From: Escherichia coli | Lineage (GTDB): Bacteria; Pseudomonadota; Gammaproteobacteria; Enterobacterales; Enterobacteriaceae | Assembly: GCF_016026235.1 (NCBI RefSeq) | Contig: NZ_CP065613.1 | Length of the DNA stretch: 64,000 nucleotides | Reading direction: 5' to 3' (one strand) | Shown here: piece after piece, positions 40,040 through 43,813 of the stretch | Numbering within the stretch: the stretch's first letter is position 1 | Layout: each line of letters opens with the position of its first letter | Notes under the pieces: generated by a model | Databases searched by the model: none | Seen by the model: only the letters and a program-made list of their open reading frames with translations | Told to the model about the DNA's origin: nothing | Position numbers and translations under genes: made by a program

Positions 40040-40114
40040 GGGTCAGTCGTATAAAGGTCATTACGGAAGGCTGTTAACCTTCTTATCGTGGTTCGAGTCC
40101 ACGCTGTCCCGCCA
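40040..40114 (+). tRNA. tRNA-like gene, anticodon GTT (Asn) by manual fold; possibly degenerate
   Basis: Cloverleaf: acceptor GGGTCAG/CTGTCCC (one mismatch), 3-bp D stem, anticodon stem GAAGG/CCTTC with loop CTGTTAA, T arm CGTGG-TTCGAGT-CCACG, 3' CCA. Confidence 0.45.
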
Positions 40115-40119
40115 AATAT

Positions 40120-40195
40120 GCTGGTTTAGCTCTAATGGTAGAGCAGTCGCCTTGTAAGCGAATGGGTAGCGGTTCAAGTCCGTTAACCAGCACCA
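40120..40195 (+). tRNA. tRNA, anticodon TGT (Thr) by manual fold
   Basis: Perfect acceptor stem GCTGGTT/AACCAGC, D arm GCTC-TAATGGTA-GAGC, anticodon loop CTTGTAA, T arm AGCGG-TTCAAGT-CCGTT, 3' ACCA. Confidence 0.55.
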
Positions 40196-40311: not shown

Positions 40312-40527
40312 ATGAAATCCATGGACAAAATTTCAACGGGCATTGCCTACGGCACCTCCGCCGGCAGTGCCGGCTACTGGTTTTTGCAGTGGTTGGATCA
40401 GGTCAGTCCGTCACAGTGGGCTGCGATTGGTGTGCTGGGAAGTCTGCTTCTGGGGCTTCTGACTTATCTGACAAATCTGTATTTCAAAATAAGAGAAGAC
40501 AAGCGTAAGGCTGCGCGGGGAGAGTAA
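40312..40527 (+). CDS. S: Pinholin (phage 21 S-type holin)
   Basis: 71 aa [30 protein letters not shown]... with dual-start motif; GGAGGTGAGG upstream. Confidence 0.85.
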
Positions 40528-40531
40528 TTCA

Positions 40532-41062
40532 ATGACACAAAACTATGAACTGATTGTGAAAGGGATCCGCAATTTTGAGAATAAAGTTGCGGTAACTTTA
40601 GCGTTACGGGACAAAAAACGCTTTGACGGTGAAATTTTTGACCTGGACATCTCGCTGGACCGTGTTGAAGGTGCCGCGCTGGAGTTTTATGAGGCAGCGG
40701 CCAGAATGAGAATCAGACAGGTATTCCTGGATGTTGCTGCCGGGTTATGTGAAGGGGATGAGCAGTCGCCGGAAAAGCGCCCCATAATTTTAGAGGCGCA
40801 GAATGTGTGGATAACCTACAAAGGAAAGCTACCGGGAAGAATTACTGGTTCTCTGAAGACGCCACCGACGGCATTGCGGTCAGAAAAAGATGATATTGAA
40901 TCGCCCATTGAAAAACTGGAGAAAAAATTGTCGGTGCTGATTCCTTCTGAAGATGAAAAAAAACGCCGCGATGAGCAGTTTGCGGCGTTTTACGATTATT
41001 GCATTGAAGTTACTCGCAGGAATTTTGTGAAGATTTTTGAGGAGGGTAAATCTCTTCAGTAA
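40532..41062 (+). CDS. Hypothetical protein (176 aa) inserted between holin and endolysin
   Basis: Starts 5 nt after the holin stop; charged, Lys/Glu-rich C-terminus; no family recognised. Confidence 0.45.
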   Translation: MTQNYELIVKGIRNFENKVAVTLALRDKKRFDGEIFDLDISLDRVEGAALEFYEAAARMRIRQVFLDVAAGLCEGDEQSPEKRPIILEAQNVWITYKGKLPGRITGSLKTPPTALRSEKDDIESPIEKLEKKLSVLIPSEDEKKRRDEQFAAFYDYCIEVTRRNFVKIFEEGKSLQ

Positions 41063-41276
41063 GCTTAATGGCGGACGCTGCAATTAATTCAGGAAGGTCC
41101 GCAAGGTCATCTGTCAGTGGATATGATGAAAAATCGGCGGCAGTTCTGTTAAGAAGCGCTTTAACTAATTCCTTTTCCTTCTCCGGCAACAAGTTGATTA
41201 GAGCTACGACTGCTTGCCTGAGTGCGATTAAATCAGCAAAAGTTTGTTTTGGTAGATTTGTGTAATCCGTAGTCAC
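41010..41276 (-). CDS. Hypothetical small protein, convergent with the preceding gene
   Basis: 88-aa ORF with GTG start and weak RBS; overlaps the 3' end of the 176-aa gene. Confidence 0.2.
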   Translation of the reverse strand: MTTDYTNLPKQTFADLIALRQAVVALINLLPEKEKELVKALLNRTAADFSSYPLTDDLADLPELIAASAIKLTEEIYPPQKSSQNSCE

Positions 41277-41383
41277 CTCTGTGTTTATCAGATTGACATC
41301 CTCCTCCCGCCAGTGCCCATCACTGGCGAGGTAAGATTTAACATATCCGGGGATTTGAAGCCGATAAATCCTGATAAATATCC

Positions 41384-41917
41384 ATGAACGTAAAAATCAG
41401 ATATGGCCTGTCGGCTGCCGTTCTGGCACTGATTGCTATCGGTGCGCCTGCGCCTGATATTCTCGACCAGTTTCTGGATGAAAAAGAAGGTAACCACACT
41501 ACGGCATACCGCGATGGTTCCGGCATCTGGACCATCTGTCGGGGTGCCACGATGGTGGATGGTAAACCCGTTTTTCCCGGTATGAAACTGTCGAAGGAAA
41601 AATGCGACCAGGTTAACGCCATTGAACGTGATAAGGCGCTGGCATGGGTGGAGCGCAATATTAAAGTACCACTGACCGAACCACAAAAAGCGGGTATAGC
41701 GTCATTTTGCCCCTATAACATTGGCCCCGGTAAGTGTTTCCCGTCGACGTTTTATAAGCGGCTGAATGCCGGTGATCGTAAGGGCGCATGCGAGGCGATT
41801 CGCTGGTGGATAAAAGATGTTGGGCGCGATTGCCGCATACGTTCAAATAACTGCTATGGACAGGTTATTCGTCGTGACCAGGAAAGCGCATTAGCCTGTT
41901 GGGGGATAGATCAATGA
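41384..41917 (+). CDS. R: SAR endolysin (GH24 lysozyme with N-terminal signal-anchor-release helix)
   Basis: 177 aa; hydrophobic Ala/Gly-rich N-terminus ([15 protein letters not shown]) then lysozyme catalytic region. Confidence 0.85.
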
Positions 41918-42351
41918 GCAGAGTCACCGCGATTATCTCCGCTCTGGTTATCTGCATCATCGTCTGCCTGTCATGGGCTGTTAATCATTACCGTGATAAC
42001 GCCATTACCTACAAAGAGCAGCGCGATAAGGCCACATCCATCATCTCTGATATGCAGAAGCGTCAACGTGATGTAGCAGAACTCGACGCCAGATACACAA
42101 AGGAGCTTGCTGATGCTAACGCGACTATCGAAAGTCTCCGTGCTGATGTTTCTGCTGGTCGTAAGCGCCTGCAAGTCGCCGCCACCTGTGCAAAGTCAAC
42201 GACCGGAGCCAGCAGCATGGGCTATGGAGAAAGCCTAGGACTTACAGCAGATGCTGAACTCAATTATTACCGTCTCCGAAGTGGAATCGACAGGATAACC
42301 GCGCAGGTTAACTACCTGCAGGAATACATCAGGACGCAATGCCTGAAATAA
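41914..42351 (+). CDS. Rz: Spanin, inner-membrane subunit (Rz)
   Basis: ATG overlaps the endolysin stop; N-terminal TM helix then coiled coil. Confidence 0.8.
42113..42238 (+). CDS. Rz1: Spanin, outer-membrane lipoprotein subunit (Rz1), embedded in Rz in the +1 frame
   Basis: 41 codons [33 protein letters not shown]... with lipobox-like VSAC and proline-rich mature region. Confidence 0.55.
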
Positions 42352-42657: not shown

Positions 42658-43476
42658 TTAAGCAGCCATCTGATGATATTTTTCCCTGAAGGCTGCCGGG
42701 GAGATATTCCCCAGACGAGAGTGACGACGCTGACGATTGTAGAAAATCTCAATGTATTCCCGTATTACTGAGATGGCTTCATCCCGGTTATTAAAACGAT
42801 AGTGGCTCAGGCTCTCATTTTTCAGCGTTCCCCAGAAGCTTTCCATCGGAGCGTTGTCGTAACAGTTACCTTTACGCGACATTGATGTTTTCAGACCAAA
42901 CTGCTCCTGTATGACCCGGTAATCGTATGCGCAGTACTGTGAACCTCGATCAGAGTGGTGGATTAGCCCGGCAGGTGGGCGCTGGCTCCTGAGCGCCATA
43001 AACAGGGCTTTACCTGTCAGCTCTTTTGTCATGCGCTCTCCCATGGCGTAGCCGACAATTTCGCACGTATAAACATCTTTGATGCCAGCGAGGTACAACC
43101 ATCCCTCCTGTGTGGCAACATACGTCAGGTCCGCCACCCAGACCTGATTTGGTGCTGTAGGAGCGAACGTCTGGTTCAGCAGATTTGGCGCAACTGGCAG
43201 ATTGTGGTTCGGGTTCGTAGTCGCTCTGAACTTGCGTTTCTGCTTACAGCGTAGCCTTAGCTCCTTACGAAGACGTGCCAGTCGGTCACGACCAACGATG
43301 ATGCCATTCTCTGCCAGCTCCGTCTGGAGCCGCCGGGTTCCATATGTTTCGCGAGTGCGGATATGTGCCACCTTAATCTCCAGTTTTAGCCGCTCATCAC
43401 TTTGTTTTCTGTCTGAGGGTTCATGCTGTACCCAGTTGTAATAACCGCTCCTGGATACACCAAATACCTGACACAT
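42658..43476 (-). CDS. IS3-family transposase OrfB (DDE integrase domain)
   Basis: 272-aa ORF with DDE motif region; normally expressed as an OrfAB fusion by -1 frameshift. Confidence 0.85.
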   Translation of the reverse strand: MCQVFGVSRSGYYNWVQHEPSDRKQSDERLKLEIKVAHIRTRETYGTRRLQTELAENGIIVGRDRLARLRKELRLRCKQKRKFRATTNPNHNLPVAPNLLNQTFAPTAPNQVWVADLTYVATQEGWLYLAGIKDVYTCEIVGYAMGERMTKELTGKALFMALRSQRPPAGLIHHSDRGSQYCAYDYRVIQEQFGLKTSMSRKGNCYDNAPMESFWGTLKNESLSHYRFNNRDEAISVIREYIEIFYNRQRRHSRLGNISPAAFREKYHQMAA

Positions 43477-43525
43477 CGCTTCAATGGGAAATTGTTGTCG
43501 CCATTGTTCGATTAACGCGTATTTT

Positions 43526-43813
43526 TCAGCGACTCCTGTGCAAAATACGCTGTTGCTTTTTTAATATATCTCGCTCAAGGCGAGCTTCATTTAACGCCTT
43601 ACGCAGTTGCAGAATTTCAGATTCCAGTTCAGCCACCGTGCGGGAGCCAGGAGTACCGAGCCCTTTTCTGGCGGCGGTAACCCATTGTCCTAAAGTGCCT
43701 TCAGGAAGGGATAATCGGGAAGCGCCTTCACTGATCGAAAGTTGATTTTCAAGAACCGTTCTGACAGCTTCGGCTTTGAACTCTTTAGAGTAACGTTGGG
43801 TTTTTCTGCTCAT
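43526..43813 (-). CDS. IS3-family transposase OrfA (HTH)
   Basis: 95 aa with HTH and leucine zipper; slippery TTAAAAAAG near its 3' end. Confidence 0.85.
   Translation of the reverse strand: MSRKTQRYSKEFKAEAVRTVLENQLSISEGASRLSLPEGTLGQWVTAARKGLGTPGSRTVAELESEILQLRKALNEARLERDILKKQQRILHRSR

What the first reader, a model, noticed from the sequence alone, without database searches (positions are those of the whole stretch)
40532..41276. Cargo gene(s) inserted between holin and endolysin
Phage-21-type lysis cassettes are normally contiguous S-R-Rz/Rz1. Here a 176-aa ORF with no recognisable family starts 5 nt after the holin stop, with a possible convergent 88-aa ORF, before the endolysin. A gene here would be expressed with the late lysis genes.
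Basis: seen in the sequence. Interest (0 to 1): 0.55.

Follow-up and report, generated by a model that had tools for sequence, protein, structure and literature searches.

The report
YdfR-family gene in lysis cassette
The "unknown" gene between the phage holin and endolysin is a long form of YdfR, a catalogued but functionally uncharacterised prophage protein that sits in this slot in about three quarters of complete E. coli genomes, so the finding is largely ordinary.

Summary
Both ORFs exist at the stated coordinates and neither is a chance ORF. The 176-aa ORF (40532-41062, +) does have a family: residues 1-112 match Pfam DUF1327/YdfR (E 9e-40) and the whole protein matches phrog_2091. The identical protein occurs on 463 public contigs. 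E. coli K-12 carries ydfR in the same holin-endolysin slot. 4044 of 5426 complete E. coli genomes and 101 of 438 phage records with an S21-type holin carry the YdfR core.

The new detail is structural. Residues 113-176 are a helical tail that elsewhere is a free-standing 67-73-aa gene. That tail is almost always paired with a convergent, 3'-overlapping partner, the 88-aa ORF family (phrog_2572). The pair has low GC and a terminator-like hairpin, and it moves between unrelated lysis cassettes, as morons do.

In this window the 88-aa ORF has lost its ATG (now ACG), Rz1 carries an amber codon and an IS3 element follows Rz.

The finding is already catalogued and of low to moderate interest.

The parts
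40312..40527 (+). Class II (S21-type) holin, 71 aa, with a dual-start motif M1...M4
   Evidence: Matches phrog_20 and phrog_9876 'holin'. Homologous genes in related loci carry PF04971. The MKSM start is read directly from the sequence.
40532..41062 (+). ORF176: long-form YdfR-family protein, a DUF1327 core fused in frame to a helical tail
   Evidence: Pfam PF07041 at E 9e-40. phrog_2091 at E 1.6e-103 over the full length. The identical protein P0001 occurs on 463 contigs and is named 'YdfR family protein'.
40532..40867 (+). YdfR/DUF1327 core, aa 1-112. Residues 1-72 correspond to the K-12 YdfR fragment that bound RNase E.
   Evidence: Pfam match spans residues 1-112. 56 of 72 residues are identical to K-12 YdfR. 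AF2 predicts three strands and a helix for aa 1-73 at pLDDT 65-77. Omega is about 0.4-0.5.
40868..41062 (+). C-terminal tail, aa 113-176. It is homologous to free-standing 67-aa (E. coli) and 73-aa (Salmonella) proteins. This copy carries a 21-nt in-frame deletion relative to the 183-aa form.
   Evidence: Alignment A1. Protein search with A4. Genomic contexts. Pairwise blastp E 3e-5. All indels are in frame and synonymous changes are in excess.
41010..41276 (-). ORF88, phrog_2572 family, convergent partner of the tail. The canonical ATG (41270-41268) is ACG here, so the gene is probably poorly translated or not translated.
   Evidence: phrog_2572 at E 8e-53. Distant homologues P0140 and P0141 and alignment A5. 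Every haplotype outside the window group keeps the ATG. Amino-acid replacements are conservative in this frame but not in the overlapping + strand frame.
40956..40991 (-). Terminator-like hairpin for the ORF88 transcript: 10-bp stem, 12-nt loop and U8 tail, starting 19 nt after the ORF88 stop. It lies inside the tail codons KKRRDEQFAAFY.
   Evidence: RNA folds. The hairpin is present in all three lineages. There is one compensatory G-C to A-U change, which is not statistically significant.
41277..41383 (-). Upstream region of ORF88. Candidate weak sigma-70 promoter TTTATC (41368-41363), 17-nt spacer, TATGTT (41345-41340). 5'-UTR hairpin at 41328-41308. On the + strand the same DNA is the 5' region of R.
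   Evidence: Sequence. Alignment with Salmonella modules shows a conserved block and aligned hexamers. Hairpin z-score is -3.4. The consensus promoter scan did not report it.
41384..41917 (+). SAR-type endolysin R (lysozyme), 177 aa
   Evidence: phrog_7 'endolysin' at E 3e-62. PF00959 in homologous loci. The hydrophobic N-terminus [15 protein letters not shown] is read.
41914..42351 (+). Rz i-spanin, with embedded Rz1 o-spanin (42107-42238) cut short by an amber codon at 42236-42238
   Evidence: phrog_13. The codon is CAG in L017, L020 and phage Chlobot but TAG in the window.

Best explanation
ORF176 is an intact long form of the YdfR (DUF1327) family. This family is the usual optional occupant of the slot between an S21-type holin and its SAR endolysin in lambdoid prophages of E. 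coli, Shigella and Salmonella.

The protein is a fusion. Residues 1-112 are the YdfR core. Residues 113-176 are a helical tail that elsewhere is encoded as a separate 67-73-aa protein. That tail gene nearly always travels with a convergent partner whose 3' end overlaps it by 52-58 nt. ORF88 is this partner.

ORF176 lies 4 nt after the holin stop, behind its own Shine-Dalgarno sequence, so it should be made from the Q-dependent late transcript together with the lysis proteins. It has no membrane segment and is not part of the lysis machinery.

By homology with K-12 YdfR, whose first 72 residues bind the N-terminal catalytic half of RNase E and which co-purifies with RNA, the core most likely binds host RNase E and/or RNA late in infection and adjusts RNA decay.

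ORF88 is a separate minus-strand unit with a candidate promoter, a Shine-Dalgarno sequence and a terminator-like hairpin, much like a moron. In this window it is probably inactive because its start codon is mutated.

Shown here: identity, fusion architecture, pairing, mobility and the decay marks. Inferred: late expression, RNase E binding and independent transcription of ORF88.
For: Identity:
- Pfam DUF1327 at E 9e-40.
- phrog_2091 over the full length.
- RefSeq and NCBI names.

The slot is the usual one:
- K-12 Qin has essQ-ydfR-rrrQ.
- Phages mEp460, Stx2-86, PhiR5_1 and 2H10 show it.
- STEC prophages show it.
- 4044 of 5426 complete E. coli genomes match the core.
- 101 phage records carry the core, against 438 with this holin type.

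Fusion and pairing:
- Mosaic breakpoints are visible in alignment A1.
- Tail lengths vary across the family in alignment A2.
- The free-standing 67-aa tail P0158 sits directly after the holin with ORF88 and no YdfR core.
- Salmonella 73-aa plus 93-aa pairs sit after Rz, in cassettes with different holins and a GH19 endolysin.
- In 72 of the 74 loci with an ORF88-like match, the convergent partner ends in a homologous tail.

Coding signal:
- Omega is below 1 in the annotated frames and all tail indels are in frame.
- Replacements are conservative in the ORF88 frame.
- ORF88 homologues at 41-49% identity keep the same length.

Mobility and moron-like traits:
- Flanking holin and R genes differ by 10-25% between phages, while the module differs by 0-7%.
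- GC is 40-42% against 51%.
- A terminator-like hairpin with a U8 tail follows ORF88.

RNase E lead:
- PMC13232886 reports that K-12 YdfR binds RNase E residues 1-597 in two-hybrid assays, co-purifies with RNase E 1-598, and that residues 1-72 suffice.
- 56 of those 72 residues are identical in the window protein.
Against: - The RNase E interaction was shown only for K-12 YdfR. That protein differs at 16 of the 72 residues and carries a different tail. Its overexpression changed few transcripts, so any physiological role is unproven.
- AF2 gave only moderate confidence for the core and low confidence for the tail.
- A tail-linker-ORF88 fusion model gave no support for a complex (pTM 0.27).
- No structural or sequence match to any characterised protein was found.
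- The proposed ORF88 promoter is weak and the consensus scan missed it.
- The hairpin arms encode the conserved RR...AA protein motif, so protein constraint alone could explain their conservation. The covariation test was not significant.
- PGAP annotates the gene as an incomplete YdfR pseudogene in two genomes.
Confidence: 0.55

Rival explanations
1. ORF176, with or without ORF88, is a lysis regulator. It would act as an antiholin-like or endolysin-modulating factor that tunes lysis timing in S21/R21 cassettes.
For: - The gene sits between S and R and is tightly coupled to S.
- The YdfR core has been seen only in lysis cassettes with this holin type.
- PMC13232886 cites a genetic screen in which ydfR mattered for envelope integrity.
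Against: - The protein has no transmembrane or signal segment. It is soluble and acidic, with GRAVY -0.49.
- The holin keeps its own dual-start antiholin motif.
- Roughly three quarters of phage records with this holin lack YdfR, and S-R is contiguous in phages PA44 and 569R4.
- The tail/ORF88 pair also occurs after Rz in Salmonella cassettes that have unrelated holins and a GH19 endolysin.
- The envelope phenotype of a ydfR knockout could be a polar effect on the downstream SAR endolysin. This is my inference.
Confidence: 0.12
2. The tail gene and ORF88 form a self-contained moron that acts in the lysogen. It could be a superinfection-exclusion or defence function, or a toxin/antitoxin-like pair regulated through the convergent 3' overlap. 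On this view the fusion to YdfR is incidental.
For: - GC is low.
- ORF88 runs in the opposite orientation, with a candidate promoter and a terminator-like hairpin.
- The pair moves between unrelated lysis cassettes.
- The convergent overlap is kept across lineages.
- Other convergent small ORF families, phrog_2411 and phrog_1853, occupy the same place in other phages.
Against: - No PADLOC defence model matches either protein, and no Pfam or NCBIfam family matches ORF88.
- Either partner can be lost while the other stays intact, which argues against addiction. ORF88 has lost its start codon here and carries an IS insertion or a frameshift in L058 and L059. The ydfR-long gene carries an IS insertion in L010 and L082.
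- A fusion to YdfR-type sequence appears in a second tail lineage, in L067 and L082. That suggests a functional link rather than an accident.
Confidence: 0.2
3. The region is decaying junk: a truncated YdfR pseudogene reading through into foreign DNA, with ORF88 as a meaningless antisense ORF.
For: - PGAP marks only the first 336 nt as 'YdfR family protein, incomplete' and does not call ORF88 in the identical CFSAN029787 sequence.
- The prophage shows decay: an Rz1 amber codon, loss of the ORF88 start and an adjacent IS3 element.
- A 65-aa + strand ORF shadows ORF88 and gives the same omega.
Against: - The 176-aa ORF is intact and identical on 463 contigs.
- The 183-aa form is carried by deposited phage genomes, 2H10 and the PhiR series.
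- Tail indels of 21, 3 and 33 nt are all in frame, and omega is about 0.46.
- Both the tail and ORF88 have diverged homologues of matching length in Salmonella.
Confidence: 0.05

Closest known systems
E. coli K-12 Qin prophage YdfR (P76160, DUF1327, 103 aa)
   Same: It occupies the same slot, holin-ydfR-lysozyme, with the same 4-nt spacing after the holin stop. Residues 1-72 are 78% identical to the window protein. It belongs to the same Pfam family.
   Different: K-12 YdfR diverges after about residue 70 into a short unrelated tail, and its stop overlaps the endolysin start. The window protein keeps the 112-aa core and adds a 64-aa tail shared with free-standing small proteins. A convergent gene and a 107-nt spacer then precede R.
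Proteins that bind the catalytic half of RNase E (RapZ in PMC13232886; T4 Srd and RraA from my own knowledge)
   Same: If the K-12 result carries over, ORF176 would be a small soluble protein that contacts the RNase E N-terminal half. T4 Srd would be the phage precedent.
   Different: There is no sequence or fold similarity to any of them. Binding has not been tested for this protein. Whether the effect would be activating, inhibitory or targeting is unknown.
Lambdoid morons next to the lysis genes, such as lambda bor on the opposite strand after Rz (my own knowledge), and the antirepressor gene between R and Rz in Stx phage PA44
   Same: These are optional genes placed in or beside the lysis cassette. 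ORF88 runs on the opposite strand, has lower GC and has its own terminator-like hairpin.
   Different: ORF88 is not a lipoprotein and has no known function. It is always coupled to an overlapping convergent partner that is itself part of the late transcript.
S21 antiholin (S21-71, the dual-start product of the holin gene; my own knowledge)
   Different: The antiholin is encoded by the holin gene itself, and the M1/M4 dual start is present here. ORF176 has no membrane segment.

Membership tests
YdfR family / Pfam DUF1327 (PF07041) | Significant match to the family profile over its full length | tested here: met
   E 9e-40, residues 1-112 against model positions 1-92 of 93. Also phrog_406 at E 5e-66.
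YdfR family / Pfam DUF1327 (PF07041) | Position directly downstream of a class II (S21-type) holin and upstream of a lysozyme | tested here: met
   Same order as K-12 Qin and many phages.
YdfR family / Pfam DUF1327 (PF07041) | Single-domain protein of about 100-116 aa | tested here: not met
   The protein is 176 aa. Residues 113-176 are an added tail. This long form is itself catalogued as phrog_2091.
YdfR family / Pfam DUF1327 (PF07041) | Binding to the RNase E N-terminal half, the only experimentally reported property | not testable with these tools
   Reported for K-12 YdfR only (PMC13232886). 56 of 72 residues are conserved.
phrog_2572 (ORF88 family) | Full-length profile match, with a convergent overlapping partner that ends in the tail motif | tested here: met
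   E 8e-53. The partner rule holds in 72 of 74 loci.
phrog_2572 (ORF88 family) | Intact start codon with a Shine-Dalgarno sequence | tested here: not met
   ATG is replaced by ACG at 41270-41268 in the window group only.
Antiholin / lysis regulator | Membrane association (a transmembrane or SAR segment) or a known holin-binding domain | tested here: not met
   No hydrophobic segment, GRAVY -0.49. No lysis-category PHROG match.
Moron (autonomous accessory unit in a prophage) | Base composition distinct from neighbouring phage genes | tested here: met
   Tail 40% GC and ORF88 42% GC, against 51% for holin, R and Rz.
Moron (autonomous accessory unit in a prophage) | Own promoter and terminator | tested here: inconclusive
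   The terminator-like hairpin with U8 is convincing by sequence. The promoter is weak and known only from alignment. Covariation is not significant.
Moron (autonomous accessory unit in a prophage) | Expression in the lysogen | not testable with these tools
   No expression data were available.
Known anti-phage defence systems (PADLOC) and toxin-antitoxin pairs | Match to a defence or toxin model; partners mutually dependent | tested here: not met
   No PADLOC hit. Each partner is found disrupted while the other stays intact.

The most novel reading that the evidence does not exclude
The tail protein and ORF88 are a two-part switch. ORF88 would be made in the lysogen from its own promoter and silenced by convergent late transcription. 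It would control the tail-bearing protein, and fusing the tail to the YdfR core would place an RNase E-binding activity under that control. This would be a previously undescribed phage device that reprograms host RNA decay at the lysogeny-to-lysis transition.
Probability: 0.08. Interest if true: 0.6.

Novelty: already known. Interest (0 to 1): 0.25.

Why it matters
As given, the finding is a routine annotation gap. The gene belongs to a named family that is present in E. coli K-12 and in most E. coli genomes.

What remains open is the function of that family. It is one of the most common prophage genes in E. coli, it sits in the middle of the lysis operon, and its only experimental lead (2026) is binding to RNase E.

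The comparative result here gives concrete handles for experiments: a YdfR core recurrently joined to a small helical protein that always travels with a convergent overlapping partner. It does not by itself reveal a new mechanism.

Tried and rejected
- Structure of ORF176. AF2 gave mean pLDDT 50, and only residues 1-73 were moderately confident. Foldseek against PDB and BFVD found nothing below E 0.01, so I drew no fold inference.
- Test for a tail-ORF88 complex. I modelled tail plus GS linker plus ORF88 with a paired alignment. The result was pLDDT 49 and pTM 0.27: all helical, with no evidence for a complex.
- Sequence searches of PDB with profiles A2, A4 and A5 gave only weak hits such as the PARP1 BRCT domain at E 0.011. 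I judged these to be chance.
- Pfam, NCBIfam and PADLOC gave nothing significant for ORF88. DUF1823 scored E 0.24 and ABATE E 0.09. The 'DUF1823' label in the PhiR phage records is therefore not supported.
- The 975-aa TPR/CHAT protein P0139 hit ORF88 in eight repeats. I rejected it as motif-level similarity.
- A genome-contig scan for ORF88 relatives in one genome per species found none.
- hhalign of P0176 against the YdfR alignment gave probability 0.8%, so I make no claim that its N-terminus is YdfR-like.
- The covariation test on the terminator hairpin found one compensatory change, which is not significant.
- The + strand 65-aa ORF (41068-41265) was considered as the real gene in place of ORF88. 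It has the same omega. I rejected it because its replacements are radical (mean BLOSUM -1.0 against +0.12 for ORF88), its ATG is TTG in several haplotypes, and it has no Shine-Dalgarno sequence.
- Literature searches for DUF1327 or ydfR found no functional study other than PMC13232886.

Full report
**Observation**

- A 71-aa class II holin lies at 40312-40527 and has the M1/M4 dual-start motif.
- A 176-codon ORF follows at 40532-41062. Its ATG lies 4 nt after the holin stop, and a GGAG-type ribosome-binding site is embedded in the last holin codons.
- A convergent 88-codon ORF lies at 41010-41276 on the minus strand and overlaps the 176-codon ORF by 53 nt.
- A 107-nt spacer follows, then a SAR-type endolysin (41384-41917) and Rz with embedded Rz1 (41914-42351).

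The lysis genes match the expected PHROG lysis families. tRNA-Asn and tRNA-Thr genes lie just upstream of the holin.

**Identity of the 176-aa ORF**

The statement that it has no recognisable family is wrong.
- Residues 1-112 match Pfam DUF1327 (PF07041) at E 9e-40.
- The full length matches phrog_2091 at E 1.6e-103.
- The identical protein is on record from 463 contigs as 'YdfR family protein' of E. coli and Shigella.
- The window DNA is 100% identical to E. coli CFSAN029787.

YdfR is the gene between the holin essQ (labelled essD in the DH10B record) and the lysozyme rrrQ in the Qin prophage of E. coli K-12. The same order, S-YdfR-R, is annotated in many lambdoid and Stx phages, including mEp460, Stx2-converting phage 86, the PhiR series and 2H10. 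It is also found in STEC prophages downstream of nanS-p.

Frequencies are as follows.
- 4044 of 5426 complete E. coli genomes match at least the core.
- Among deposited phage genomes, 438 carry this holin type and 101 carry a YdfR core.

The gene is therefore a common but optional occupant of this slot. Minimal cassettes with S and R adjacent (4 nt apart in PA44, overlapping in 569R4) do exist, for example Stx phage PA44 and vB_EcoS-569R4.

**Architecture**

Alignment with relatives shows a mosaic.
- All family members share roughly the first 70 residues.
- K-12 YdfR then diverges into its own short tail.
- Most members share residues 1-112 and stop there, giving 114-116 aa.
- The window protein continues for 64 more residues.

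The commoner version of this long form is 183 aa. The window copy has a 21-nt in-frame deletion that removes seven residues (GSVADLN).

I collected 57 related loci, which give 37 haplotypes.
- All indels in the tail are multiples of three (21, 3 and 33 nt).
- Synonymous changes are in excess in the annotated frame, with omega about 0.46.

PGAP labels the first 336 nt as an 'incomplete' YdfR in two genomes. I read this as a consequence of comparing the gene with short-form references, not as evidence of decay.

**The tail is a separate protein elsewhere, and it comes with ORF88**

A phmmer scan of 1.84 billion representative proteins with ORF88 found true distant homologues of 89-93 aa at 41-57% identity.

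Their contexts show the same convergent arrangement. A small gene on the late strand meets the ORF88-like gene, and the 3' ends overlap by 58-59 nt. That small gene is 73 aa, and it is homologous to the ORF176 tail (pairwise blastp E 3e-5).

A profile search with tail variants then found two kinds of free-standing version.
- A 67-aa E. coli protein, P0158, on at least 393 contigs. It sits directly after the holin, with ORF88 convergent to it and no YdfR core present.
- 73-aa Salmonella proteins. They sit after a DUF2514 spanin in cassettes with different holins (Phage_holin_8 and holin_3_7) and a GH19 endolysin.

In 72 of the 74 loci with an ORF88-like match, the convergent partner ends in a homologous tail, whatever precedes that tail. 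A second tail lineage (L067, L082) is likewise fused to YdfR-type sequence and paired with an ORF88-like gene.

**Is ORF88 a real gene?**

Substitution counts alone cannot separate it from a 65-codon + strand ORF (41068-41265), because the two share third codon positions and both give omega about 0.6. Three other lines of evidence favour ORF88.
- Amino-acid replacements are conservative in the ORF88 frame (mean BLOSUM62 +0.12, against -0.33 expected at random). They are radical in the other frame (-1.0).
- The ATG of ORF88 and its GAGG ribosome-binding site are kept in every haplotype outside the window group. The + strand ATG is TTG in several haplotypes.
- E. coli and Salmonella versions align end to end at 41-49% identity with the same length.

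I conclude that ORF88 belongs to a real protein family, phrog_2572. It is present in 314 of 5426 complete E. coli genomes and in 8 phage records.

In this window its ATG has become ACG (position 41269 on the + strand). That leaves only a GTG that overlaps the ribosome-binding site, so the gene is probably not translated well here.

**Cargo-like traits of the tail plus ORF88 segment**

- GC is 40% for the tail and 42% for ORF88, against 51% for the holin, R and Rz.
- Between phages the flanking holin and endolysin differ by 10-25%, while the ydfR-long/ORF88 segment differs by 0-7%. This is the pattern expected for a unit that spreads by recombination.
- Nineteen nucleotides after the ORF88 stop, on its strand, lies a classic terminator shape: a 10-bp GC-rich stem, a 12-nt loop and eight U (40991-40956). 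The consensus scan missed it because of its loop-size limit.
- The hairpin is present in all three lineages. One G-C to A-U double change keeps the pairing, but this single event is not statistically significant. The arms also encode the conserved RR...AA motif of the tail, so protein constraint may explain the conservation.
- Upstream of ORF88, a block ATG(G/T)ATATTTATCAGGnTTTATC is shared by the E. coli and Salmonella modules. Aligned hexamers TTTATC-17-TATGTT (window) and TTTATC-17-TATTGT (Salmonella) form a weak candidate promoter.
- A stable 5'-UTR hairpin follows, with z-score -3.4.

These features fit a moron-type unit embedded antisense in the late operon. Promoter activity has not been shown.

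Other phages carry different convergent small ORFs in the same place: phrog_2411 in phage Chlobot and phrog_1853 in Stx2 phage 86. The position after the YdfR core therefore behaves as a variable cargo site.

**Function**

No defence model, NCBIfam model or solved structure matches either protein. Structure prediction was only moderately confident for residues 1-73, which form three strands and a helix, and poor elsewhere. Fold searches found nothing.

The single experimental lead is PMC13232886 (RNA Biology 2026). It reports the following for K-12 YdfR.
- It was recovered in a two-hybrid screen.
- It binds RNase E residues 1-597, and its first 72 residues suffice.
- It co-purifies with FLAG-tagged RNase E 1-598.
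- It brings down RNA.
- Its overexpression changes few transcripts.

The window protein is identical at 56 of those 72 residues. My best mechanistic guess is that ORF176 is a late-expressed cytoplasmic protein whose core contacts host RNase E and/or RNA, while the tail provides a helical module linked to ORF88. I put about one chance in three on the RNase E part.

A role as an antiholin or lysis-timing factor is less likely, for three reasons.
- The protein is soluble.
- The holin has its own dual-start antiholin.
- The tail/ORF88 pair also occurs with unrelated holin and endolysin types.

A strict toxin-antitoxin reading is unlikely because each partner is found disrupted while the other stays intact.

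**State of this prophage**

The lysis region shows decay marks.
- Rz1 carries an amber codon at 42236-42238, where close relatives have CAG.
- ORF88 has lost its start codon.
- An IS3-family element lies directly after Rz.

**Verdict**

The finding is already catalogued, with function unknown. The fusion-and-pair architecture is a useful comparative detail rather than a discovery of a new kind of system.

Noticed in passing
window 42107-42238 (stop at 42236-42238): The embedded o-spanin gene Rz1 ends at a TAG after ...AWAMEKA. Close relatives (L017, L020, phage Chlobot) have CAG there and continue for 19 more residues. The same C-to-T change turns a proline in Rz into leucine. The spanin of this prophage is probably defective.
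   Followed up: yes
window 42658-43813 (-): An IS3-family insertion sequence lies directly downstream of Rz, between the lysis genes and the terminase genes. OrfB is 272 aa (NF033516, E 8e-100) and orfA is 95 aa. The ORF88 remnant in L058 is preceded by the same sequence that borders this IS3 element in the window, so the same IS may sit in ORF88 there. IS elements with rve-type transposase domains interrupt the ydfR-long gene in L010 and L082.
   Followed up: partly
window 41068-41265 (+): A 65-codon + strand ORF starts 5 nt after the ORF176 stop and lies entirely inside ORF88 on the other strand. It stays open in all haplotypes and shows the same syn/nonsyn ratio as ORF88. I judged it a shadow ORF because its replacements are radical and its start is not conserved.
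   Followed up: yes
window 41385-41338 (-); L068 about 4575-4528 (-): A 15-codon upstream ORF precedes ORF88: [15 protein letters not shown] here and MYIYQALSALMLWLL in the Salmonella modules. The length, the start and the stop position are the same in both. In E. coli its ATG shares the CATG palindrome with the endolysin start codon. It overlaps the candidate promoter, so the two readings exclude each other.
   Followed up: partly
window 40040-40195 (+): tRNA-Asn (GTT) and tRNA-Thr (TGT) genes lie between the upstream 207-aa ORF and the holin. The otherwise identical ydfR region of CFSAN029787 has a different set there (Ile, Arg, Thr, Gly).
   Followed up: no
L079 (Stx phage PA44) 2554-3548: In phage PA44, where S and R are only 4 nt apart, an antirepressor gene sits between R and Rz. 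This is a second cargo slot inside the same type of lysis cassette.
   Followed up: no
proteins P0090, P0096, P0109: A few database proteins of 173-187 aa carry both the holin domain (PF04971) and DUF1327. They look like holin-YdfR read-through fusions or sequencing errors at the 4-nt junction.
   Followed up: no
window 40312-40527 and 41384-41917 versus L001, L004, L006: Holin and endolysin alleles differ by 10-25% between phages whose ydfR-long/ORF88 segment is 93-100% identical. Recombination breakpoints must lie at or near the gene boundaries of the slot.
   Followed up: partly
window 40360-40383 (+): The scan reports a terminator-like hairpin, GCCGGCAGTGCCGGC followed by a T-rich stretch, inside the holin coding sequence. 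It is probably incidental.
   Followed up: no
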